From a virus (Duplodnaviria; Heunggongvirae; Uroviricota; Caudoviricetes): a DNA stretch of 23,360 nt. Positions 9,738 to 20,593 of this stretch are shown here, one piece after another (the first letter of the stretch is position 1; every line of letters begins with the position of its first letter). The translations under genes and the position numbers were made by a program. The notes beneath the pieces were generated by a model that was given only the letters and a program-made list of their open reading frames with translations, did not search any database and was not told the DNA's origin. The stretch is from IMG/VR virus record IMGVR_UViG_3300005076_000001, positions 1 through 23,360 of that record. One strand, 5' to 3'.

Positions 9738-9926
9738 TCAACTAGATTTGTTTGTATTCGGCAGGAATGTTTCTATACCTGTCAAATGTGTCCACACTTG
9801 CTTTTCATTATCCCAATCCCCAAGCCAACCCAGAGGTTTGTACCGATAAACCTCATCATCGTCAATGCGTGCATAAAGCTCACCGTTCAGGTAGATTTGT
9901 GTTCCAACACGGCTATAGTTTTGCAT
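9738..9926 (-). CDS. hypothetical protein, 62 aa
   Basis: ORF track; GAGGAG SD; 1-nt overlap with ClpP-like gene. Confidence 0.85.
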   Translation of the reverse strand: MQNYSRVGTQIYLNGELYARIDDDEVYRYKPLGWLGDWDNEKQVWTHLTGIETFLPNTNKSS

Positions 9927-10699
9927 TACTCTTTCTCCTCTTGTGCTGGTTGTTTCTTACGACGACTTGCATACGGTGGTCGAAGAGTGCCTTGCTTTGC
10001 TGCGGCTTCTTCTCCTACATCGTCACCTGTCGACTCCTCTGCGGCTTGGGTATGTGTGTCTGTGCCACAATGCCCACACTCACATTCATCTTCTTCAATC
10101 TGTGCAAGATATTCGTTACGTTTCTGGAAGCGATCAATCCAAGCGGAAGCATCGAGCCATAGGTCTTTCCCTTCAAGCATATCATCAAGCTCTTTCTCAG
10201 ACAAGAAATGCTTGTACACAGAACGAAGGCGAGATTCCATGTATTTGATGGTGAAAGCAGAAGATGCTTTAAACTCTGGAATTGTACCACTCATACCAGC
10301 ACTACCTGCATGAAGCAGAGCATGAAACCCTTCGCTCAATTCAAAACTATCTGCATACAGTGGAATGAAAGAGAAAGCAGAAGCAAGAAGGCCAGTGCAT
10401 ACGCAATGAATACTCACCCCACGAGCTTGTGCGCTTTGCATCTCATGAATGAGCAAATCAACACTGCTTACACAACCACCAACACCAGAGACATACATTG
10501 TAACATTGTCCCCTTCCTCAAGCTGTCGCAATGTGTCTACAATAGGAACAACATCGGTTGGGCTTTCAATGCTTTCATGTACGAAGATTGGAAAATCCCT
10601 CACCATCTGTACACGAGGGTTGCCAACAATGAACATGCCACCGTCAGATTGTGTGCCAATGCCGTTACGTTTGGTTGTTTTGTTCACAAATTTATTCAT
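9926..10699 (-). CDS. ClpP-like (S14 family) serine protease, 257 aa
   Basis: MYVSGVGG (NSPGG-like), LASAFSFI (catalytic Ser) and LLHAG (catalytic His); AAGGAG SD. Confidence 0.85.
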   Translation of the reverse strand: MNKFVNKTTKRNGIGTQSDGGMFIVGNPRVQMVRDFPIFVHESIESPTDVVPIVDTLRQLEEGDNVTMYVSGVGGCVSSVDLLIHEMQSAQARGVSIHCVCTGLLASAFSFIPLYADSFELSEGFHALLHAGSAGMSGTIPEFKASSAFTIKYMESRLRSVYKHFLSEKELDDMLEGKDLWLDASAWIDRFQKRNEYLAQIEEDECECGHCGTDTHTQAAEESTGDDVGEEAAAKQGTLRPPYASRRKKQPAQEEKE

Positions 10700-10710
10700 T
10701 GTTGTTCTCC

Positions 10711-11850
10711 TTAATCTGTAATAAGAACTTGGTAATTCATCAATGCTTCATAAGCTCTTGGGTCAATCTGATCTTTCCACATTTCAGCCAGTCTCTTTGC
10801 ATTCTTTTCCTTGTCTTGCTTGTAGGCGTTAAATGCTGCCTCGACTGTTGTGAAGTTTCCAATTACATAGTTCTCACCTAACCATGCCCCTTGTGCGCGA
10901 TATGGGCTTGTTTTGGAGTTAGACAAATCCACACCCAATGGAAACTCATTAAAGCGTTTCGGCTTGATGAACGTATTTATTTGCGGAGGAAGGAACACGC
11001 AGTTATCGAAAGAGTATTCACTATTCCCTCTTACCAAAAGGTCTTTGTCTAACTGCCAACCCTCATTCCCGAAACCAATCTGTTTATCACACCAAGCGGC
11101 AAACGTCTGGTAGCAATGCATATCAGGGTGAACTTCAACATACATATAACTTGGTGCATACTTAAGCTGCTCTGGACTGTAGCACCGCTTAATCATGGAA
11201 TTGAAGTGCGTATAGTGTTCAGTGTGTTTGCCGTCGATCTTGGCAACATACCCACCCACACCGAAGTACCCAACACCACAAATGCTCCTATGAAACGGGT
11301 TACTTACATTGCCTCTTTTGACATTAGCCGCCGTAACTTCTACCTCCACAGCAGGTGAGTCACTAAACACCACAGAGCAGCGACCTCGTTTTCCTTTCAA
11401 GCTGGTTACAGTTGCAGTATACCCCTCGTTTGTTGCAAAGCTATCGCCAACCTTAAAAGTTCCAGTGCGCATTGTACAACCGCAAGAAGGGTGAACACTT
11501 CTTTCAAATTCAAGCCGTGTCTTAATTGTGGTATTTCCGCAACTACATGCAAACTCCCACAAAAAGTTTTTAGCCTTCTTCCCTACCGCCTTAATTGCAG
11601 TTAGTTCACCTTTACTAAATCCGGCTATGTTTTTAGGTGCCGTACCACCACCAAGGCAGCCGCAGGATTTTTGTTTTCCGCTCTGCATGTCAGACATACG
11701 CACTGTGCAAATGTTTCCGCAATCACATTTGCAAGTAAAACGACGAACCATCTTACCAGTTGTTTCACTTTGTTTGCGTTCTGCCTCTTCGACAACAGTG
11801 AGCATGTTATACTTCGCACCAATAGGTATCTCTTTCAACACACCCATCAT
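10711..11850 (-). CDS. free-standing HNH-like homing endonuclease with CxCxCG zinc repeats and a C-terminal AP2-like DNA-binding domain, 379 aa
   Basis: CKCDCG, ACSCG, WQLDKDLL..GN.EYS..NCVFLP..IN, YRAQ...IGNF..VE.AF..YK motifs. Confidence 0.8.
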   Translation of the reverse strand: MMGVLKEIPIGAKYNMLTVVEEAERKQSETTGKMVRRFTCKCDCGNICTVRMSDMQSGKQKSCGCLGGGTAPKNIAGFSKGELTAIKAVGKKAKNFLWEFACSCGNTTIKTRLEFERSVHPSCGCTMRTGTFKVGDSFATNEGYTATVTSLKGKRGRCSVVFSDSPAVEVEVTAANVKRGNVSNPFHRSICGVGYFGVGGYVAKIDGKHTEHYTHFNSMIKRCYSPEQLKYAPSYMYVEVHPDMHCYQTFAAWCDKQIGFGNEGWQLDKDLLVRGNSEYSFDNCVFLPPQINTFIKPKRFNEFPLGVDLSNSKTSPYRAQGAWLGENYVIGNFTTVEAAFNAYKQDKEKNAKRLAEMWKDQIDPRAYEALMNYQVLITD

Positions 11851-12638
11851 ACATCTCCATAAGCACGTAGAACGTCTTTAACAATCTCGGAACGCATAAC
11901 GTCTTTTACACCAAATTTGTGTTTTGCAAAATTCGGATATTTAGCGTTTCCGTTTTCATCAAAGAAACGAGACATTGCATCTTGCATCCCACTGCGACCT
12001 TTGTCTGCTGTGTAAATCTGCGTACTACTGCCGCTAATCACAACCTTTGTATTTTCACCAATGCGCTCAAGCAGCAACTTCATAATGATTGGCTCAAATA
12101 ACTGGCTCTCGTCCAAAAGCCAAAGCTTGTTGTCCATTGTCGCTCCCAAAATATAGTTTGCAATGGTGAAGTGGATGCGCTTACCTAGATCGTTTTTAAC
12201 CTTCTCCTTACCCAGAAACTGTTCCAGAAGTTTACGTGTACTTGCATAGTGTGGCTCAAGTTTAGATTGCAAATCGTTCGGCAAAAAGCCTACCTTGTCT
12301 TTACCCACTTCAGCAGGTGTGCGTGTAATTACAATCTCAAGAGAAGGGTCACGCAGATACTGTTTGCAAAAATACCACAATGTAACTGCCGTCTTGCCAA
12401 CGCCCGCTGGGCTGTCCACAAAAGTTACGATGTTCTCTTCAATCTTGTCAATAAACTCCCATTGTGCTGCTGTTGGTTGGAACTCATTGATACGGTTTTC
12501 AACCTTAGCCACCTCACTTGGTTTTGGTGTTGGTGGTGTACCAGCAGCCTGCTTCACATTACGCGTTTGCTTACGTGTTTTACGCGGCTGTGCAATGGCA
12601 CTGTCGATAGCGTACAAATCGTCTTCTGTGTATGTCAT
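11847..12638 (-). CDS. phoH: PhoH-like ATPase, 263 aa
   Basis: Walker A SPAGVGKT, ITR.P..V...GFLP..L..KL.P, LLDESQ, VISGS..Q, DVMRSEIVK; AAGGAG SD. Confidence 0.92.
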   Translation of the reverse strand: MTYTEDDLYAIDSAIAQPRKTRKQTRNVKQAAGTPPTPKPSEVAKVENRINEFQPTAAQWEFIDKIEENIVTFVDSPAGVGKTAVTLWYFCKQYLRDPSLEIVITRTPAEVGKDKVGFLPNDLQSKLEPHYASTRKLLEQFLGKEKVKNDLGKRIHFTIANYILGATMDNKLWLLDESQLFEPIIMKLLLERIGENTKVVISGSSTQIYTADKGRSGMQDAMSRFFDENGNAKYPNFAKHKFGVKDVMRSEIVKDVLRAYGDV

Positions 12639-12998
12639 TTACTTCTCCTTGTTCACAATAACATCATTCAACCAAGTTTTAATCTCTTCGTTTGAAGCAC
12701 CATTCTTCGTCATCCAATTAACAGTGTCAACAAGCCGCTTCGCCTTCTTTACACAAGCACCCTTGTTTTCGTATGTTCTTTTGAAGAATCCATTTTCTCC
12801 CCAAAAATAAGGACGACCGTCAACACGAACATCAAGAGAGCGGAAAGGCCCACCTGTTGTCTTGCTACGTACAATTTCTGTTTTCGTAACAAAAACCTTC
12901 TCTGCAAAGAATGCCCAAACACCTTCTTTTGTGTATTCTGGCGGGTAATAGTTTAGGAGCCAGCGTGTTTGCCCTTGTCGAATTCGCTTCTGTTTCAT
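12639..12998 (-). CDS. hypothetical protein, 119 aa (MKQKRIRQ...)
   Basis: Start moved to ATG 12998 (ATGA overlap, AAGGA SD). Confidence 0.8.
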   Translation of the reverse strand: MKQKRIRQGQTRWLLNYYPPEYTKEGVWAFFAEKVFVTKTEIVRSKTTGGPFRSLDVRVDGRPYFWGENGFFKRTYENKGACVKKAKRLVDTVNWMTKNGASNEEIKTWLNDVIVNKEK

Positions 12999-13198
12999 TT
13001 GATTCCTTTCTTCGGCTTTGGAATTAACGGACTCCAATGTGTATCGAATCGTGGATTGAAAATGTCCTTGCGCGAACATCCCCACCGGCTGTAACACCAC
13101 ACCAACATATTCTTTGGAGGTGTTAGTTCTTCTGGTGTGTAATAACGCGCAGCAACAGGAATGTCTTTTGTGCTGCAATGCCCAATTTGGAAATTCAT
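12995..13198 (-). CDS. hypothetical protein, 67 aa
   Basis: ORF track; AAGGAGAG SD. Confidence 0.85.
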   Translation of the reverse strand: MNFQIGHCSTKDIPVAARYYTPEELTPPKNMLVWCYSRWGCSRKDIFNPRFDTHWSPLIPKPKKGIK

Positions 13199-13245
13199 AC
13201 TCTCTCCTTGTAAAGCAAGGCCGCCGATAAAAGCAGCCCCGTTAG

Positions 13246-13533
13246 TTAAGACACCAAAGGCATTACAAACACTTTAGCATCTTTACCTGTAAGTTCCTTA
13301 AACTCTGCTTTCAGTTCTGGAATACCACTTAGCGTTTCTTCATCCACTTCAGTGAAAGTGTACTAGCCACGTGCCAAACACCAACCAACTATACAATCAG
13401 AGTTATCTGCATCATACATCGGACTAATGCGTTCGAGAGTGTCTTCGTAGTTTTCATACCAATCGTCACTATCCTCGCACACTTCATCGAACGGCAGACC
13501 AACAACCAATACACCACTAATACTCATACCCAT
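13246..13533 (-). pseudogene. 95-codon hypothetical gene interrupted by one in-frame TAG (13363-13365): pseudogene, readthrough or sequencing error
   Basis: Translated by hand: MGMSISGVLVVGLP...CLARG*YTFTEVD...FKELTGKDAKVFVMPLVS; AAGGAG SD; no restart signal after the TAG. Confidence 0.75.
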
Positions 13534-13534
13534 C

Positions 13535-13693
13535 TCAGTTCTCCTTTACATCTTTCAGCAAGCTAATGAAATATTCAGCTTGTTGTTCTGGTGTGAAATT
13601 ATCCCATGTTTGAAGCTGTTCTGGCGCTGTTGTATTTAGGTCAGAATACCACTTCTTCCAAGCAGCTACCACATCTTCTTCATTAAATGTCAT
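13535..13693 (-). CDS. hypothetical protein, 52 aa (MTFNEEDVVAAW...)
   Basis: Translated by hand; AAGGAG SD; fills the gap exactly. Confidence 0.8.
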   Translation of the reverse strand: MTFNEEDVVAAWKKWYSDLNTTAPEQLQTWDNFTPEQQAEYFISLLKDVKEN

Positions 13694-13704
13694 TTGTATT
13701 CTCC

Positions 13705-13980
13705 TTATGCTTGTTTACGTGCATTACGACGTTGTGTTGTAGCTGGCTTTTCTTCTGTTTGATCTTCTACAACCACTTGTTCACTTGTTACAACTTGTGC
13801 AGGGTTTTCTCGTACAAGTGTATCACTTTTCACTAAAGTGATTGTCCACATATTCCCAATAAGCTGTGGAGCATGTTCAACACTTTCACCATCCATGTCC
13901 CAACCCTCACGAGCCATGTCAATCAGAATGCGTGTAAATTCAATAGGGCTAGATGTTGCAATTTGGAATGTTTGTTTCAT
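13705..13980 (-). CDS. hypothetical protein, 91 aa
   Basis: ORF track; AAGGAG SD. Confidence 0.85.
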   Translation of the reverse strand: MKQTFQIATSSPIEFTRILIDMAREGWDMDGESVEHAPQLIGNMWTITLVKSDTLVRENPAQVVTSEQVVVEDQTEEKPATTQRRNARKQA

Positions 13981-14040
13981 TTTAATTCTCCTTTATATCT
14001 GAACGTAGTGAAGATATATTCTCACAGAACAGCTAGTTTG

Positions 14041-14310
14041 TCAATCTATTTCTTCACCATACAACTCATCCAGCCATTTATCTAGACATTTTAGACACAG
14101 TCTGTATTCTCCGAAGAAGCTACCATCCACTAGCGCCTTCTCGTATCGGTAGGTTTCTCCTTTCTCAATGAAGTGGTCTTGCTTTCCGTCCAAGCTAAAA
14201 CATACATGACGTTTACGTGCTTTTCTCATTTTAATTTGTTGACAAGACAGTAAGGCATCTTGATCTTCAAACATGTTTAATGAGAGGTAGTCGTCCTCTT
14301 CATACTTCAT
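14041..14310 (-). CDS. hypothetical protein, 89 aa, possible zinc-binding (H.C...CLKC)
   Basis: ORF track; GGGGG SD. Confidence 0.8.
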   Translation of the reverse strand: MKYEEDDYLSLNMFEDQDALLSCQQIKMRKARKRHVCFSLDGKQDHFIEKGETYRYEKALVDGSFFGEYRLCLKCLDKWLDELYGEEID

Positions 14311-14427
14311 TACAAGCCCCCGTTTGTCAAGAACAATTTATAGGCATTCTGTTTCACATATTTCGTTTGTTGTTTTTGTGCATATTGCAACACAAGAATA
14401 TGGAAGAAAGAGAATAGATAGTAGACA

Positions 14428-14676
14428 CTAGTCATAATTGTCTTCCTCCTTCTCTAAACGCTTCCTATATTCTTCAAGCTCTGCTTCATATTTCTCTTTC
14501 TGTGCAATATCTTTAGAAATATACTGTACAAGGTCACGAAGAACATTTGTGTGTTTTACAATATGGCTGTTGTCTTGCATCTCATAATCAATAATAAGCT
14601 CTTCGTTTCTTGCAACAGACAAGAGAAGTTCTTCACGCCAATGTTTCAATGTTTCCAGCGAGACAGAATGTGTCAT
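14428..14676 (-). CDS. hypothetical coiled-coil protein, 82 aa
   Basis: ORF track; GGGAG SD; ATGA overlap. Confidence 0.85.
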   Translation of the reverse strand: MTHSVSLETLKHWREELLLSVARNEELIIDYEMQDNSHIVKHTNVLRDLVQYISKDIAQKEKYEAELEEYRKRLEKEEDNYD

Positions 14677-14900
14677 TGTTTTCTCCCTTCCAATTCTGAG
14701 CCAAGCAGCTCTTCAAAGAAGAACATGAGTAACAACAGTGTATTAGCAATAGGCACAATACCTAGCATCATAAAACCAAATATGTGTGCAGTTTTCTGGC
14801 TAACACCATCAGACCATCTAGAATAAATACCAACTGTACCCACTGCAAACCACACAAATACAGTGATACAATAAACTACCCACAATGTTGTCATTTGCAT
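14673..14900 (-). CDS. hypothetical two-TM membrane protein, 75 aa
   Basis: ORF track; GGAG SD; two hydrophobic helices. Confidence 0.85.
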   Translation of the reverse strand: MQMTTLWVVYCITVFVWFAVGTVGIYSRWSDGVSQKTAHIFGFMMLGIVPIANTLLLLMFFFEELLGSELEGRKQ

Positions 14901-15184
14901 TTCTCCAAAGCAATTGCAAATGAACGTGCATTCTCAAAGAATTTCAGCATACGTGTTTCTGTTGCTTGTTCTTTGTGTAGATGTTTAAGCCACTGTTTAT
15001 GATCGTTCACAAGGCTCATATAGTATTTGTAGTCACATTCCGCGCCAGCATCGTAATAAAGTGTTGCCATGTCTTTCTGAAGACCGCAAGAGTTAATTAC
15101 GTCTTGAATTTCAACTTTACGCTTGTCCAAGCTGCTTTGCAAATGACGAATGTATTGCTCTACGTCTTGTTGAATTTTATTCAT
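14891..15184 (-). CDS. hypothetical protein, 97 aa (MNKIQQ...)
   Basis: Start moved to ATG 15184 after AAGGAGAG SD. Confidence 0.85.
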   Translation of the reverse strand: MNKIQQDVEQYIRHLQSSLDKRKVEIQDVINSCGLQKDMATLYYDAGAECDYKYYMSLVNDHKQWLKHLHKEQATETRMLKFFENARSFAIALEKCK

Positions 15185-15279
15185 TTCATTCTCTCCTTTA
15201 GAATGTATTTCCAATTGTAATAATATACTGCTTATTCCCAGCAAACTCTTTTGTAAGTTTAACACTCTTCACAGCATTT

Positions 15280-15402
15280 CTAGAACCCATACACATTGAA
15301 CAGAAGATGCACTTCAGACGGGTTTGCATTAATTTGTTCTAGCTCTGCCTTAACTTTAAACAAGGCACTAATCAGATCATCAATACTCATCGGCTCACGC
15401 AT
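15280..15402 (-). CDS. hypothetical protein, 40 aa (MREPMSIDDL...)
   Basis: Translated by hand; AAGGAG SD; overlaps upstream stop. Confidence 0.7.
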   Translation of the reverse strand: MREPMSIDDLISALFKVKAELEQINANPSEVHLLFNVYGF

Positions 15403-16027
15403 TTCGTTTCTCCTTTTCATTGTTCCAGTTGTCTACATCATATGTAATAGCTTGCATCTTGTCAACCCATTCGTACAAACGTCCAGAGACATACATGTTA
15501 CGTACAAGCAGCACAAAGAATTTAGCCTCTTCCTCGCTTGTAATGGAATATGGGACGCAAATCTCAACACCCTTGCAACGGTTCCACCATTCTACACGAA
15601 CAGAGGGACGAGCAACAACCCCATTTTCTTTGTCTTTAAGAAATGCTTCCTGTTGCTCCCAAAGCTCTTTGTGCCACTTATCCATCTCTTCTTTGTTGCT
15701 GTCTTCCATTGTGAAGCCCACTACTTTCTTACGGCTTTTGCCAAGCTTTTTCGTGGAATAAGGCTTCCATTCGACAGTGTTCTTTGGATAGGAGGGGTAG
15801 AGCTTATCCCACACAATTTGTTCACATTCGTCTTTATATTTCATGCGAGGATGAATGAAACATACAGCGTAGCGAATGCCGTTTAAGTAGAAGCTGAAGT
15901 CATTCCACCATGTCAAGCTGACGGGGACAACATCTTCATAACCACCAAGGACAGAAAAGCCCTTACGCTGTCCTTTGGCTGCTAGGAGCATTCGTTGTTT
16001 CTTTGCTTCCATCATTTTGTTTTTCAT
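15395..16027 (-). CDS. hypothetical protein, 210 aa
   Basis: ORF track; AGGAG SD; abuts macrodomain gene. Confidence 0.88.
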   Translation of the reverse strand: MKNKMMEAKKQRMLLAAKGQRKGFSVLGGYEDVVPVSLTWWNDFSFYLNGIRYAVCFIHPRMKYKDECEQIVWDKLYPSYPKNTVEWKPYSTKKLGKSRKKVVGFTMEDSNKEEMDKWHKELWEQQEAFLKDKENGVVARPSVRVEWWNRCKGVEICVPYSITSEEEAKFFVLLVRNMYVSGRLYEWVDKMQAITYDVDNWNNEKEKRNA

Positions 16028-16471
16028 TTATTCTCCTAATGTGTAAACAACAGGCTGGAAATGCTTTGCCTCTGTTTCAATAATTTTCTCAATAACTTCC
16101 CAATCTCCATTAGCCAACCCCGCACCAATCTTTGGAAACCCCACCTCACAAACATTATTCCACACAGCAAACATGCTGTCAATCTTTTTAATACATTCTG
16201 CGATAGCCTCGTAGGAGACATAACGAACATTCTTGTTACGTCCGTAATATTGCTGCGTAATGCAATTGAAGATTGTCACACCATCCGTTTCAGCAACAAT
16301 AACATTGCCAAGTGTCATGTCCCCTTGCATGTACGCTTCGTATGCTTCTGGGTATTGTTGTCGAATAGCTTGTGCAATTCCACTACCCATTTTGCGTTGT
16401 GCATTACATCCGTGCGCAATGTATTTTAATCCAGAAACAAGCAAGTCACCTTGTCGATAGATAATTCTCAT
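16028..16471 (-). CDS. macrodomain (ADP-ribose binding/hydrolase) protein, 147 aa
   Basis: GDLL...IAHGCNA..KMGSGIA..I...YP and FPKIGAGLANGDW..I motifs. Confidence 0.92.
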   Translation of the reverse strand: MRIIYRQGDLLVSGLKYIAHGCNAQRKMGSGIAQAIRQQYPEAYEAYMQGDMTLGNVIVAETDGVTIFNCITQQYYGRNKNVRYVSYEAIAECIKKIDSMFAVWNNVCEVGFPKIGAGLANGDWEVIEKIIETEAKHFQPVVYTLGE

Positions 16472-16899: not shown

Positions 16900-17099
16900 T
16901 TCAGTTTCTCCTCTAATTTAACCATTCGTGCCATTATACGTGCTTTCTGAATTTTGTCAACAATATCGTCACGTCCTTTTGCTTTATAGCGTGTTACAGC
17001 AGCCTGAATAATACTTCTAGCACGTCGCACTACTTCTTGTGCAAGGTCTTCCACAGAAATGTTTTCATAATCAATATTACCAATACGTTTAGCTGACAT
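16896..17099 (-). CDS. hypothetical basic protein, 67 aa
   Basis: ORF track; GGAGG SD. Confidence 0.82.
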   Translation of the reverse strand: MSAKRIGNIDYENISVEDLAQEVVRRARSIIQAAVTRYKAKGRDDIVDKIQKARIMARMVKLEEKLK

Positions 17100-17527
17100 T
17101 AGATATTCGCCTCCATTTTTGCACGCATGGTTGCATCAAGTTCATTGCACCAAATATAAGTGTAGCCGTCTCGGCAGGCTTCTACACCTTGCCAAGGGTG
17201 TGAGCTGTATCCACCGTCACGAGGCCATTTAACATGGTACGATCTGCGCGAATTATCAGGATACACAAAATGAATCTGTGTGATGTCTGCATACTTCTTC
17301 AGACGCTCCAGCCAATGCTCACTGCCGTTATCAAATTCATACTCACCACCGTTTGAATCAACATCAATGAAGAACTCTTTGCAATAGCGGTATTCTTCAA
17401 TAACACCTTCCTCATCAATTTGTTCTGTGGTTGTAAGGTCGGCAATACAAATACCATTTACATGCTTCCAATCAAACACAATAGTTTCACAATTTTCCAG
17501 CACAAGTTCAAGTTTTACAGGTTTCAT
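17099..17527 (-). CDS. hypothetical protein, 142 aa
   Basis: ORF track; GGAG SD; 1-nt overlap with the polymerase-like gene. Confidence 0.85.
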   Translation of the reverse strand: MKPVKLELVLENCETIVFDWKHVNGICIADLTTTEQIDEEGVIEEYRYCKEFFIDVDSNGGEYEFDNGSEHWLERLKKYADITQIHFVYPDNSRRSYHVKWPRDGGYSSHPWQGVEACRDGYTYIWCNELDATMRAKMEANI

Positions 17528-18921
17528 TATTTCTTCTCCACAACACAGAATTTATCACTACCAACAACATCATAATACGCTTTACGCATCAGGTTGGCAA
17601 CATCATGTTCAATGCTTTCTCGCACAATAACACTATCATGCTCTGGGTACAACACTTCACCTTGTTGCAGAAGCTCTTGCATAACAATCTGAATAATATC
17701 ACTGTCTTTCTTTTGAAGCAAGATGCCAACATCAGAAAAGAAGTGATGGTCAATTGGTTTGTTTGCAGCCACAACAAGCTCACACAAATCGTTAGACGGG
17801 AATGTTTTTGTCAGCGAATACACACCAACATATTTTCTGTCTTTCTCATCTTTCTTCATGTCGTCATACACTTCCTTTGTCAAGGCATTTGCTGCCGGAA
17901 GCATTGGACGTTTTTCACCACGTTTTGCATTCAAGCAGGCCATGACAGCAAACTTGAACAAATTACGAATTGGGTTGTATTTGTACAAGCCGTATTTCTC
18001 GATGTGCTGGCCAATCTCTTCGTTATCAAGGCGAAGCACACACTCATAGCCTTTAGTCGTATACGGATTGTACACTCCATCCCATGCACGCTCAATCCAC
18101 ATGTCAACAAATGTTGGGTCAGCCTGCCATGCGTGGTCATAAAGAATGGATGGATGCAGAGCCTTAAAATCCAGTTCAACCACTTTCTCTCCGTTAATCA
18201 TAATACGTTTCCTATCCTCCTGTTTCATCACTTGAACACCACCAACGATGTTATAAAACCTTCCACCAAGCTCTAAGTTGTTGCTGAATACACGCTTGTA
18301 TTGTTGCACAGGGAGTGTGTTCCCGTCAAGCGTTAGATGCACATCACACAATTGTTTGTTGTATCTTTGCACCAGTGAACGTATTTCAGCCGTTCCTCTA
18401 ATCTTGCTATTCAGTAGTTGCTTTGTTTCTCTGTCTTTGATTTCAATCAAGTCTCCATCATAAGCCAAGTCTTCCTGAATGTCAATCCCACTCCACAACT
18501 CTTTATACTTATCAGTTATGAAGTATAAGCTAGGCACAGTGTCTTGCTTCTTTAGGTTGATGAATCCACCCTTGTAATAGACAAGAAATCCATTCGCACA
18601 CAAACTATCCAACACCTTACACATCTTGCGATAGCTGATACCTTGCTTGTTACATGTGTAAAGCTCCTTGTCCTTCGGCACTTGCATGTATCTAGCTTGT
18701 TGTTTCATGCTTCTAGCTGTGTTTGTCACTACACACCACAACTCTTTGACACATCCACTACCAACAACAGATAGAAGAACATTGTACACATCTTCATACT
18801 TCTTTGTCTTGTTGTAGTGTAGGTTATAGTGAGTAGATAGAGACAACAACACATCTCTTTCTTCTTTCTTCATCTTGTATAATTCTATCATTTCATTATC
18901 TCTTCTTCTCCTTCCATACAT
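17527..18921 (-). CDS. minimal family-A / T7-RNAP-like nucleic acid polymerase fold protein, ~464 aa (start uncertain: 18921 or 18894)
   Basis: GGRFY, motif A VELDFKALHP, motif B RNLFKFAVM, LQKKDSDII and motif C HDS, in the order found in PolA and T7 RNAP. Confidence 0.75.
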   Translation of the reverse strand: MYGRRRRDNEMIELYKMKKEERDVLLSLSTHYNLHYNKTKKYEDVYNVLLSVVGSGCVKELWCVVTNTARSMKQQARYMQVPKDKELYTCNKQGISYRKMCKVLDSLCANGFLVYYKGGFINLKKQDTVPSLYFITDKYKELWSGIDIQEDLAYDGDLIEIKDRETKQLLNSKIRGTAEIRSLVQRYNKQLCDVHLTLDGNTLPVQQYKRVFSNNLELGGRFYNIVGGVQVMKQEDRKRIMINGEKVVELDFKALHPSILYDHAWQADPTFVDMWIERAWDGVYNPYTTKGYECVLRLDNEEIGQHIEKYGLYKYNPIRNLFKFAVMACLNAKRGEKRPMLPAANALTKEVYDDMKKDEKDRKYVGVYSLTKTFPSNDLCELVVAANKPIDHHFFSDVGILLQKKDSDIIQIVMQELLQQGEVLYPEHDSVIVRESIEHDVANLMRKAYYDVVGSDKFCVVEKK

Positions 18922-19069
18922 ACCAAGTCACTACACACATGTAGATAGTGGAACGTATTTGCTGTAAGTGATTGATACACAAAGAAATATGACTATTTCA
19001 GGTGTGTTCCCATGCTTGCATTGTAGACGTTGCTTGCCTGTTGTGCAAGAACTATTTCTCTATACATTC

Positions 19070-19097
19070 AGTATACCACATAATTCTTTATTGTCAA
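19070..19097 (-). promoter_or_regulatory. leftward promoter for the polymerase-like gene
   Basis: TTGACA-16 bp-TATACT with TGTGG extended -10. Confidence 0.75.
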
Positions 19098-19132
19098 TAG
19101 CTTGGTAGCTTTTTCATTTAACACATTCTTTA

Positions 19133-19161
19133 TTGACTTTATAGACATGTCATGGTATAAT
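19133..19161 (+). promoter_or_regulatory. rightward promoter (divergent pair)
   Basis: TTGACT-17 bp-TATAAT with TGn. Confidence 0.85.
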
Positions 19162-19184
19162 AGAAGGACAATAGGAGAAACACC

Positions 19185-19736
19185 ATGTCAATGCAAGATA
19201 GTCCTGTGTTCTGTCATTTGCTTGTAGACACACAAAGCAAAACAGAACGTACAACAGAAGCCATCCTCAAGCAGAACGGATGGAAATTCATTCAAGATGG
19301 ACGTTACACATCCTCTTCCCCTCTTACCATTTCCAGTGGCTCCAAAACAAAGCTGACGTTCTCTTTGACACAGCTTGCCTACCAAGATGGACGTTTGCTT
19401 GACTTAGCTTACAACCAATCTTCCAACAAATTTATGCCTACACAGGTGGGAGCAACCTACCTAGCTAACATTCGCTTCAAGGCTAAAAGTAGCAGCCAGA
19501 ACAACATTCTCGATGTATCTCTTGAAAGCCCTAACGTAAGCTTCAACCCAATTGTAGCTGAGTCTATTACATTCAACAAGAGTGCAAACACAGAACATTT
19601 CATCTCCATTACACAACCAATCTTTATTACGCAAGATGTTGTGACTAATGGGCTGGAAATCTATCTACTACCTACAGGTGGTAATTTGTCTGTGTACGAT
19701 TATTCCGTATTTGTTCAAAAGACATTCATTCCCTAA
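19185..19736 (+). CDS. hypothetical beta-rich protein, 183 aa (possibly virion-associated)
   Basis: ORF track; AGGAG SD; Ser/Thr-rich beta-strand pattern. Confidence 0.88.
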   Translation: MSMQDSPVFCHLLVDTQSKTERTTEAILKQNGWKFIQDGRYTSSSPLTISSGSKTKLTFSLTQLAYQDGRLLDLAYNQSSNKFMPTQVGATYLANIRFKAKSSSQNNILDVSLESPNVSFNPIVAESITFNKSANTEHFISITQPIFITQDVVTNGLEIYLLPTGGNLSVYDYSVFVQKTFIP

Positions 19737-20501: not shown

Positions 20502-20573
20502 GCTACCTTAGTTTAGTTGGGAAAATTTCGGTTTTGTAGTCCGAAGTCGTCAGATCGTACCTGACAGGTAGCC
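20502..20573 (+). tRNA. atypical tRNA-Thr(UGU) or tRNA-like RNA
   Basis: Acceptor GCTACCT/AGGTAGC, D-arm GTTT/AAAT, anticodon loop TT-TGT-AG, T-stem GTCAG/CTGAC; T-loop ATCGTAC, U31-U39 mismatch, no encoded CCA. Confidence 0.75.
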
Positions 20574-20593
20574 CCGAACAATAAGGAGAAATA

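What the first reader, a model, noticed from the sequence alone, without database searches (positions are those of the whole stretch)
17527..18921. Half-size PolA/T7-RNAP-fold polymerase with non-canonical sugar-selectivity residues
Seen: GGRFY (18253-18267), VELDFKALHP (~18151-18180), RNLFKFAVMACLN (RNLFKFAVM at 17941-17967) and HDS (17632-17640), in that order. Known: T7 RNAP has DWRGRVY, motif A D537, motif B R627-SVT-K631-RSVM-TLA-Y639 and motif C H811-D812-S813. The RxxxKxxVM and HDS matches are close. However, the protein is about half the size of T7 RNAP (464 vs ~880 aa) and shows no recognisable 3'-5' exonuclease motifs. The Y639-equivalent position is Asn, and motif A D+5 is His (Glu steric gate in Pol I, Gly in T7 RNAP). 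The window's genes use host sigma70-type promoters, so a bulk transcription role is not obviously needed. Inference: a primase-like, origin-priming or otherwise specialised nucleotidyltransferase of unknown sugar specificity.
Basis: partly seen in the sequence, partly recalled or inferred. Interest (0 to 1): 0.78.

Follow-up and report, generated by a model that had tools for sequence, protein, structure and literature searches.

The report
Mini PolA-like phage polymerase (divPolA2/TV-Pol)
This early phage gene encodes a real, probably active, stripped-down relative of DNA polymerase I and T7 RNA polymerase joined to a DNA-binding-type head; the family was already described by computer (TV-Pol 2008, divPolA2 2024), has never been tested at the bench, and most likely starts phage DNA replication.

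Summary
ORF 17527-18921 (-) is 464 aa, and all four motifs lie at the stated coordinates. An AlphaFold2 model (pLDDT 93) shows an N-terminal winged-helix domain followed by thumb-poor palm and fingers. [quoted passage not shown] The motif A and C aspartates, the hairpin Arg and the RxxxK of motif B are invariant in 208 relatives. His at D+5 is 97% conserved and Asn at the Tyr639/766 position 91%.

The protein is not a new kind. It is homologous to AUR84708, the published reference of divPolA2 (hhalign 99.5%, E 2e-22). More distantly it matches the TV-Pol of Microcystis phage Ma-LMM01. Bacterial relatives sit beside resolvases and integrases, as described for TV-Pols. This scan has reported the same family before on other DNA.

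- The His/Asn/HDS signature marks a large clade that includes ICP1 ORF100. The published reference carries the Pol I-like Glu/Tyr/DE signature.
- The gene is early, and it is the first long gene after a strand switch in related phages.
- In ICP1 the theta-replication coverage peak lies within a few kb of the homologue.

Best reading: a replication-initiating primase-polymerase (about 0.45). Sugar specificity is unknown.

The parts
17527..18921 (-). divPolA2/TV-Pol-type minimal family-A-like polymerase gene, 464 aa (P0001)
   Evidence: ORF. PHROG 4756, unknown function, E 2e-76. AF2 model pLDDT 93. Fold matches at Z 10-13. hhalign to the divPolA2 reference AUR84708: 99.5%, E 2e-22.
18472..18792 (-). 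N-terminal winged-helix-type domain (residues about 44-150)
   Evidence: VIA-align matches to winged-helix proteins (MarR-type regulators, ribosomal winged-helix proteins, ADAR1 Z-beta, STIV F93) at Z 5-6 over residues 44-150. G118 is near-invariant and R70 mostly conserved.
17530..18465 (-). Polymerase core (residues about 153-464): reduced thumb, Arg hairpin, palm, fingers
   Evidence: Aligned range 153/160-464 on apicoplast Pol, Aquifex Pol I, Pol nu, Klenow, T7 DNAP, yeast mtRNAP and T7 RNAP. Foldseek E 1e-5 to 1e-3 to 53 family-A chains.
18253..18267 (-). GGRFY hairpin motif (R221 invariant; counterpart of Pol I TGR / T7 RNAP RGRxY)
   Evidence: R221 in 208/208 sequences. Lies on strands 208-213/219-224 in the model.
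18151..18180 (-). Motif A, VELDFKALHP (D251 invariant; H256 at D+5)
   Evidence: D251 208/208, H256 201/208. The divPolA2 reference has Glu at this position.
17929..17967 (-). Motif B helix, RNLFKFAVMACLN (R319, K323, M327, N331)
   Evidence: K323 208/208, R319 206/208, N331 190/208 with Tyr/Phe in 18 distant members.
17632..17640 (-). Motif C, HDS (H428, D429 invariant)
   Evidence: H428 and D429 208/208, S430 186/208. At the turn of hairpin 425-427/430-434.
19070..19097 (-). Sigma-70-type promoter of the gene (TTGACA, 16 nt, TG-n-TATACT), leaving a leader of about 135 nt
   Evidence: Promoter scan, 11 of 12 matches with TG; sequence read.
19133..19161 (+). Divergent sigma-70-type promoter of the rightward operon
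   Evidence: TTGACT-17-TATAAT with TG, 11 of 12 matches.

Best explanation
The ORF encodes a member of the divPolA2 / TV-Pol family. It is a roughly 310-residue minimal family-A-type polymerase core (Arg hairpin, palm, fingers, almost no thumb, no exonuclease) behind a winged-helix-type N-terminal domain. Host RNA polymerase transcribes it early from a strong sigma-70 promoter, as the first long gene of the leftward operon. I infer that it is catalytically active and works as an auxiliary, low-processivity, template-directed polymerase that starts phage DNA replication. In this reading the winged-helix head places it on DNA at or near its own locus, it makes a short primer de novo, and the phage's own PolA and primase-helicase take over. 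Shown: the fold, the conserved catalytic set, family membership, early-type promoter and conserved genomic position. Inferred: activity, de novo priming, the origin link, and whether it uses NTPs or dNTPs. The His / Met-Leu / Asn / HDS signature departs from Pol I and leans towards, but does not equal, the RNA polymerase pattern.
For: Fold and motifs:
- AF2 model pLDDT 93.
[quoted passage not shown] Foldseek agrees.
- Catalytic residues are invariant in 208 relatives.

Family:
- The A1 HMM hits AUR84708 at E 6e-17; hhalign gives 99.5%, E 2e-22. AUR84708 is the divPolA2 reference of PMC11348598.
- Profile-profile match to the Ma-LMM01 gp030 family: 88.5%, E 2.7e-6, with motifs in register.
- Rhodobacteraceae homologues occur in 14 of 151 genomes. 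A resolvase lies nearby in 6 of 13 loci and a tyrosine integrase in 9 of 13. This is the context from which Iyer et al. predicted a prim-pol role.
- The SCCmec CcPol-MP enzyme, which Iyer et al. 2008 placed in TV-Pol, is an experimentally shown DNA primase-polymerase.

Auxiliary role: the genome has its own 926-aa PolA and a Toprim-DnaB protein.

Early expression:
- Sigma-70 promoter upstream.
- ICP1 ORF100, a homologue at 26% identity and E 3e-18, is classed 'Early' and is highly expressed.

Origin link:
- At 8 min the ICP1 theta-replication coverage peak is 'near the 60 kb position'. ORF100 lies at 56.0-57.7 kb in the engineered phage and at 58.95-60.6 kb in MH310934.
- In 16 of 18 related loci the gene is the first long gene after a strand switch, while the flanking genes are not conserved.
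- A local minimum of cumulative GC skew lies at about 19-20 kb.
Against: - No member with this architecture has been assayed (PMC7581432 says so for TV-Pols).
- The phage already has a Toprim primase.
- No iterons or notable repeats lie next to the gene.
- The GC-skew turn coincides with the switch in gene orientation, so it is not independent evidence.
- The ICP1 peak is known only from 1-kb bins and from text, not from a mapped origin.
- CcPol keeps Pol I's Glu and Phe and needs an OB-fold partner, whereas the gene downstream here is not conserved in relatives.
- The family is almost absent from plasmids, so it is not a general Rep protein.
- The authors of divPolA2 proposed repair or RNA polymerase roles instead.
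Confidence: 0.45

Rival explanations
1. It is a small phage RNA polymerase that transcribes a set of middle or late genes, or a specific RNA, with the winged-helix head acting as the promoter-recognition module. This would parallel early-made T7 RNAP or N4 RNAP II.
For: - Motif B (R...K...VM), motif C (HDS) and GR-x-Y resemble T7-type RNAPs more than Pol I.
- The Pol I steric-gate Glu is replaced by His, and Phe762 by Met/Leu.
- Yeast mtRNAP scores Z 11.9 and T7 RNAP Z 10.6.
- The gene is early.
- The ICP1 literature states that no phage RNAP is predicted and that control of its expression programme is unknown.
- The divPolA2 authors raise this possibility.
Against: - No repeated non-sigma-70 motif is found in the 87-kb genome. 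Only ribosome-binding-site and -35-type words are enriched in intergenic DNA.
- Strong sigma-70-like promoters head the operons.
- The Tyr639 position is Asn.
- The thumb is nearly absent, which argues against processive synthesis.
- Motif A reads like Pol I (D-F/Y-K/S-A-L) and the motif spacing is Pol I-like.
- Foldseek's top 50 matches are all DNA polymerases.
- Homologues sit in small integrative islands with recombinases, where a transcriptase has no obvious role.
Confidence: 0.2
2. It is an accessory DNA polymerase for repair, gap filling, lesion bypass or recombination-dependent synthesis, and not an initiator.
For: - The best structural matches are family-A DNA polymerases, including the repair enzymes Pol nu and Pol theta.
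- The absence of proofreading and the poor thumb suit short-patch synthesis.
- The divPolA2 reference AUR84708 keeps Pol I-like Glu, Tyr and DE.
- The divPolA2 authors list repair as an option.
Against: - Immediate-early, very high expression in ICP1, and a place at the head of an early operon, are unusual for a repair enzyme.
- The winged-helix head and the link with recombinase-bearing mobile islands point to element-specific replication.
- This clade has lost the Pol I sugar and fidelity residues Glu, Phe and Tyr.
Confidence: 0.15
3. It is a leftover or passenger of a TV-Pol-type selfish element that invaded an ancestral phage, or it serves in conflict (exclusion of other phages, anti-defence), and has no role in the phage's own replication or transcription.
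For: - Iyer et al. describe TV-Pol elements inserted in phage Ma-LMM01 next to transposases.
- Some phages carry two or three paralogues.
- The neighbourhood is made of hypervariable small early genes.
- Felix O1 itself was not among the tblastn hits.
Against: - No recombinase or transposase lies next to the gene here.
- Catalytic residues are under strong conservation over 9160 cluster representatives.
- The position is conserved in many 85-92 kb phages.
- PADLOC gives no match.
Confidence: 0.1

Closest known systems
divPolA2 (Yutin, Tolstoy, Mutz, Wolf, Krupovic, Koonin 2024, Virol J 21:200; PMC11348598; reference AUR84708 of Vibrio phage 1.063.O)
   Same: Homologous over about 320 residues (hhalign 99.5%, E 2e-22). 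Shared features: about 430-465 aa, active-looking palm, no canonical thumb, no exonuclease, an N-terminal globular domain, carried in addition to a regular DNA polymerase, variable gene neighbourhood, and a host clade of 80-105 kb phages that includes Ounavirinae. The same structural neighbours were reported (mtRNAP Z about 12, N4 RNAP about 9).
   Different: This protein and most relatives I sampled have His at D+5, Met/Leu and Asn in motif B, and HDS in motif C. The published reference has Glu, Tyr and FDE. Here the regular polymerase is a PolA, not the PolB of barbaviruses. I assign the N-terminal domain to the winged-helix class, whereas the paper reports no detectable similarity.
TV-Pol, Transposon-Virus polymerases (Iyer, Abhiman, Aravind 2008, Biol Direct 3:39; PMC2579912)
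   Same: Minimal superfamily-A core of 400-600 aa with an invariant Arg on a beta-hairpin, two catalytic Asp, RxxxK and a conserved Asp in the fingers, no nuclease, and an extra N-terminal domain in a subset. Bacterial homologues of this protein lie beside gamma-delta resolvases and lambda-type integrases in Rhodobacterales, as described there. The profile-profile match to the Ma-LMM01 protein is 88.5%, E 2.7e-6.
   Different: The described bi-helical coiled-coil thumb is not evident in the model, which has a single helix at 177-191. TV-PolN was predicted to be all-helical, whereas here the head is a winged helix. The phage gene has no recombinase, transposase or D5 helicase next to it. That Ma-LMM01 gp030 is the paper's TV-Pol is my inference from its size and the adjacent transposases.
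CcPol-MP primase-polymerase of SCCmec (Bebel et al. 2020 eLife, PMC7581432; Rice 2023, PMC10061031)
   Same: A family-A-type polymerase without proofreading and with a shortened thumb, carried by a mobile element beside recombinases. It is the only enzyme that Iyer et al. 2008 placed in TV-Pol for which de novo priming has been shown.
   Different: CcPol is a truncated canonical Pol I relative that keeps Glu710 and Phe762 and uses dNTPs. It needs the OB-fold partner MP and works with the Cch2 helicase. It lacks the N-terminal domain of TV-Pols. No conserved small partner gene is seen here.
T7-type single-subunit RNA polymerases, including N4 RNAP II (gp15/gp16)
   Same: Shared palm and fingers fold (T7 RNAP Z 10.6, yeast mtRNAP Z 11.9, N4 RNAP II Z 7.0). 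RxxxKxxVM-like motif B, HDS motif C and GR-x-Y. Made early. T7 RNAP and mtRNAP also prime DNA replication (established knowledge).
   Different: About half the size. No promoter-binding N-terminal domain or specificity loop was recognised. Asn replaces Tyr639. Motif A is Pol I-like. No family of phage promoters exists in the genome. Sequence profiles find no significant match.

Membership tests
divPolA2 | Sequence homology to the published reference AUR84708 (MG592441.1) | tested here: met
   The A1 HMM hits the ORF 25469-26761 (-), annotated AUR84708.1, at E 6.4e-17 and 3.8e-16. hhalign gives 99.5%, E 2e-22 over 320 columns.
divPolA2 | Palm with the catalytic residues; no canonical thumb; no 3'-5' exonuclease; N-terminal globular domain | tested here: met
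   D251 and D429 are invariant. Only one helix (177-191) lies between the head and the Arg hairpin. Pfam gives no hit. Residues 44-150 form a separate winged-helix-type domain.
divPolA2 | Encoded in addition to a regular replicative DNA polymerase, in a variable neighbourhood | tested here: met
   A 926-aa PolA (PF00476) and a Toprim-DnaB protein lie elsewhere in the genome. The flanking genes have no homologues in 18 related loci.
TV-Pol | Beta-hairpin with an absolutely conserved Arg; two catalytic Asp; RxxxK and a conserved Asp in the fingers | tested here: met
   R221, D251, D429 and K323 are 100% conserved, R319 99%, and D406 98% (plus Glu) in 208 sequences. Their positions fit the strands and helices of the model.
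TV-Pol | Thumb made of two antiparallel helices | tested here: inconclusive
   The model shows a single helix, 177-191, in the thumb position. No coordinates were available for inspection.
TV-Pol | Homology to a TV-Pol named in the 2008 paper (Ma-LMM01) | tested here: met
   A2 (72 sequences) against A3 (the Ma-LMM01 gp030 family): hhalign 88.5%, E 2.7e-6, 173 columns, with the Arg hairpin and motifs A, B and C in register. gp030 lies next to the transposases gp031/032. That gp030 is the paper's protein is inferred.
TV-Pol | Neighbourhood with a gamma-delta resolvase, lambda-type integrase, IS transposase or D5-like helicase | tested here: not met
   Not met for the phage gene itself, which has no such neighbour. 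Met for its Rhodobacteraceae homologues: a resolvase in 6 of 13 loci and an integrase in 9 of 13.
Canonical family-A DNA polymerase (Pfam PF00476) | Match to the DNA_pol_A profile; steric-gate Glu, Phe/Tyr and Tyr of motif B; HDE in motif C | tested here: not met
   No Pfam, NCBIfam or PDB sequence match. The corresponding residues are His256, Met327, Asn331 and HDS. Only the fold is shared.
T7-like single-subunit RNA polymerase | Tyr639-type ribose selector; promoter-recognition elements; a set of conserved phage promoters | tested here: not met
   Asn331 is at the Tyr position. The head is a winged helix, not a T7-type N-terminal domain. No repeated non-sigma-70 motif is found. hhalign to T7 RNAP and N4 gp16 is not significant.
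PolA-SSB (CcPol-MP) primases | Small OB-fold partner encoded directly downstream, and a helicase in the operon | not tested
   The overlapping downstream gene (17099-17527, PHROG 2349, unknown function) was not folded. It has no homologue next to the polymerase in related phages or in ICP1. No helicase is present in the operon.

The most novel reading that the evidence does not exclude
The His / Asn / HDS clade of divPolA2 includes this protein, ICP1 ORF100, the Rhodobacteraceae island proteins and Ma-LMM01 gp030. It may be a sequence-directed, RNA-synthesising primase of the family-A fold that fires the theta origin of these lytic phages and of small integrative elements. That would be a third structural class of origin primase, distinct from the DNA-synthesising Glu/Tyr/DE paralogues.
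Probability: 0.25. Interest if true: 0.75.

Novelty: new member of a known kind. Interest (0 to 1): 0.4.

Why it matters
The family is very large: 9160 cluster representatives at E<=0.001. It is missing from Pfam and NCBIfam, and PHROGs lists it as unknown function, so it is annotated as 'hypothetical' in well-studied phages such as ICP1. The ICP1 literature states that no phage polymerase other than the replicase is predicted and that the control of replication and expression is unknown.

No member with this architecture has been assayed. Showing what it synthesises and where would settle three questions:
- Whether family-A cores can act as primases without an SSB partner.
- How these phages start theta replication.
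- What the His/Asn substitutions do to sugar selection.

For this window alone the result is an annotation of a known but uncharacterised family.

Tried and rejected
- Sequence searches of P0001 and of profiles A1 and A2 against Pfam, NCBIfam, PADLOC and PDB sequences gave nothing meaningful. Relatives also have no Pfam hit.
- hhalign of A1 against single sequences of T7 RNAP, N4 gp16 and the phage's own PolA was not significant. The best local pieces fell on motif C or motif B.
- No promoter family for a phage RNAP was found. Exact 11-14-mers repeated in the genome are only ribosome-binding-site words and the terminal 38-bp repeats. A 10-mer, one-mismatch count over 50 intergenic regions gave only RBS and -35-type words, at 11 regions against a maximum of 7 in shuffles.
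- No iterons or notable repeats occur in 18850-19250 or 5750-6900.
I do not treat it as a link.
- Plasmid Rep idea: tblastn of P0001 found no plasmid. An island homologue found only four records, and only three of those matches lie on megabase-size replicons.
- Conserved partner idea: the overlapping downstream 142-aa gene is not conserved next to homologues, so I ran no further search on it.
- Rfam found only a tRNA in the window.
- GC skew follows gene orientation and cannot locate an origin on its own.
- The supplement of the TV-Pol paper, with its gene lists, is not held.
Full report
**Observation.** The minus-strand ORF 17527-18921 encodes 464 aa. Pfam, NCBIfam, PADLOC and PDB sequence searches find nothing. 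PHROGs places the protein in phrog_4756, 'unknown function'.

**Structure.** I aligned 37 relatives found (A1). The AlphaFold2 model built on that alignment has mean pLDDT 93 and pTM 0.87.
- Foldseek against the PDB gives 53 matches at E<=0.001. The 50 matches listed are all family-A DNA polymerases: apicoplast Pol, Aquifex and Taq Pol I, Klenow, Bst, Pol theta and Pol nu.
- The independent VIA-align scan aligns residues about 153-464 to apicoplast Pol (Z 13.3), Aquifex Pol I (12.3), Pol nu (12.0), yeast mitochondrial RNAP (11.9), Klenow (11.7), T7 DNAP (11.6), T7 RNAP (10.6) and N4 RNAP II (7.0).
- The same scan aligns residues 44-150 to many winged-helix proteins at Z 5-6.
- D251 ends strand 245-252. 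R319, K323 and N331 lie on helix 317-331. H428 and D429 sit at the turn between strands 425-427 and 430-434. This is the motif A, B and C topology of this superfamily.
- Between the head and the Arg hairpin there is only one helix (177-191), so the thumb is minimal. There is no exonuclease domain.

**Conservation.** A profile search of 1.84 billion representatives finds 9160 proteins at E<=0.001 and 1547 at E<=1e-30, mostly 400-560 aa.
- In 208 aligned members R221, R237, D251, Y287, K323, H428 and D429 are invariant. R319 is 99% conserved, H256 97% and N331 91%.
- Eighteen distant members have Tyr or Phe at position 331.

**Genome context.** The window is the first 23.4 kb of an 87,360-bp virus record.
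- The nearest named phage is Pseudomonas phage vB_PsaM_M1 (Ounavirinae), with 40% identity for this protein, annotated there as 'DNA polymerase'.
- The genome has its own 926-aa PolA, a Toprim-DnaB primase-helicase, ribonucleotide reductase, an exonuclease and an RNA ligase. The 464-aa protein is therefore an extra polymerase.
- It is transcribed from a near-consensus sigma-70 promoter with an extended -10 at 19097-19070, back to back with the promoter of the rightward operon.
- In 16 of 18 related loci the homologue is likewise the first long gene after a strand switch, whereas none of the flanking genes is conserved.
- I found no repeated motif that could serve as a promoter set for a phage RNA polymerase, and no iterons beside the gene.

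**What is known.** Homologues in Rhodobacteraceae occur in 14 of 151 genomes sampled, sometimes in several copies. They are flanked by a small serine resolvase in 6 of 13 loci and a tyrosine integrase in 9 of 13.
- This is the neighbourhood described for the subset of TV-Pols that carries an N-terminal domain (Iyer, Abhiman, Aravind 2008, PMC2579912). That paper predicts a primase-polymerase role.
- A 72-sequence profile of the family (A2) matches the family of Microcystis phage Ma-LMM01 gp030, a 506-aa protein next to transposases. The hhalign probability is 88.5%, E 2.7e-6, with the Arg hairpin and motifs A, B and C in register.
- Earlier notes of this scan pointed me to 'divPolA2' in Yutin et al. 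2024 (PMC11348598). I read the paper. I then tested the link: the A1 HMM hits the paper's reference protein AUR84708 in MG592441.1 at E 6e-17, and hhalign gives 99.5%, E 2e-22 over 320 columns.
- The paper describes the same features: palm with catalytic residues, no homologous thumb, no exonuclease, an unassigned N-terminal domain, carriage beside a regular polymerase, a variable neighbourhood, and a host clade of 80-105 kb phages including Ounavirinae. It proposes either repair or RNA polymerase activity.
- The protein is therefore a member of a published, computationally defined family. The same scan has reported it on other DNA several times.
- The only biochemically studied enzyme placed in TV-Pol by Iyer et al. 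is SCCmec CcPol-MP. It is a dNTP-using primase-polymerase that keeps Pol I's Glu710 and Phe762 and needs an OB-fold partner. Its authors state that no other TV-Pol has been characterised.

1. The 'non-canonical' residues mark a clade. This protein, vB_PsaM_M1, ICP1 ORF100, Vibrio phage 1.193.O, the Rhodobacteraceae island proteins and Ma-LMM01 gp030 all carry His at D+5, Asn at the end of the motif B helix and HD[S/A/G] in motif C (Met/Leu at the Phe762 position was read only for the first five). The published divPolA2 reference carries Glu, Tyr and FDE, the Pol I pattern. This suggests two functional types within the family.
2. The N-terminal domain is of the winged-helix type.
3. The ICP1 homologue ORF100 (gp102 of ICP1_2006_E) is listed as 'Early', with no function, and has very high read counts in published RNA-seq tables (PMC7567579).
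4. Published marker-frequency data place the early theta-replication peak of ICP1 'near the 60 kb position' (PMC7145576). The gene lies at 56.0-57.7 kb in the engineered phage used and at 58.95-60.6 kb in MH310934.
5. ICP1 reviews state that no phage RNA polymerase is predicted and that the control of its programme is unknown.

**Mechanism.** The most economical reading is a replication-initiating primase-polymerase. It would be made at once by host RNAP, positioned by its winged-helix head, make a short primer with a low-processivity core lacking thumb and proofreading, and hand over to the phage replisome.
- Support: the prim-pol prediction for TV-Pols, the recombinase-linked islands that carry no other replication gene, the early timing, the conserved place at a divergent junction, and the ICP1 coincidence.
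- Against: none of this is direct evidence, the phage already has a Toprim primase, and the GC-skew turn at 19-20 kb tracks gene orientation.
- Sugar choice is open. Motif A and the motif spacing look like Pol I, motifs B and C and GR-x-Y look like T7 RNAP, and His/Asn match neither.
- I give the initiator reading about 0.45, a dedicated RNA polymerase 0.2, a repair polymerase 0.15 and a selfish or conflict role 0.1.

**Verdict.** This is a new member of a known, uncharacterised family, of moderate interest. The interest lies mainly in the family being testable in ICP1.

Noticed in passing
window 1-93 and genome 87270-87360 (G000:C1): Both ends of the record consist of a 38-bp tandem repeat (unit begins TGGGCTTCGCCCTGGTAGCC), about 2.4 copies at each end. 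The 'direct terminal repeat' of this record may therefore be an assembly junction inside a tandem array of about five copies rather than a true terminal redundancy.
   Followed up: partly
window about 5830-6820: A stretch of about 1 kb has only short, doubtful ORFs and several long imperfect inverted repeats (for example 6175-6202 with 6224-6251). Rfam finds nothing there. It could be a non-coding RNA, or a second candidate for an origin.
   Followed up: partly
L071 (MG592441.1 25469-26761, AUR84708) compared with window 17527-18921: The published divPolA2 reference has Pol I-like Glu (D+5), Tyr (motif B) and FDE (motif C). The window's protein and most relatives sampled have His, Asn and HDS. 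The family seems to hold two catalytic signatures.
   Followed up: partly
L007 / L063 (Vibrio phage ICP1 ORF100, gp102 of ICP1_2006_E): ICP1 carries a 555-aa homologue annotated as hypothetical. Published tables class it as Early and highly expressed, and the published theta-replication coverage peak ('near 60 kb') lies within a few kb of it.
   Followed up: partly
L011, L012, L049-L060 (Rhodobacteraceae genomes): Homologues of 460-525 aa sit in small islands with a serine resolvase and a DUF6538-type tyrosine integrase, up to three copies per genome. Some copies are truncated or split (for example L053, L059).
   Followed up: partly
window 17099-17527 (-): A 142-aa gene of unknown function (PHROG 2349) overlaps the polymerase stop by ATGA, which suggests translational coupling. 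It is not conserved beside homologues in other phages.
   Followed up: partly
window 9926-16471 (-) and 20502-20575 (+): The same leftward operon carries a macro-domain 'phosphatase' (16028-16471), a PhoH-like ATPase (11847-12638), an HNH endonuclease of the T7 gp3.8 type (10711-11850) and a ClpP-like protease (9926-10699). A tRNA-Thr (TGT) lies at 20502-20575.
   Followed up: no
whole genome G000: The genome holds 70 direct exact 14-mer repeat pairs against about 14 in shuffles. Many are ribosome-binding-site/start contexts such as CATTATTTCTTCTCC at 17525, 51832, 72267 and 72516.
   Followed up: no
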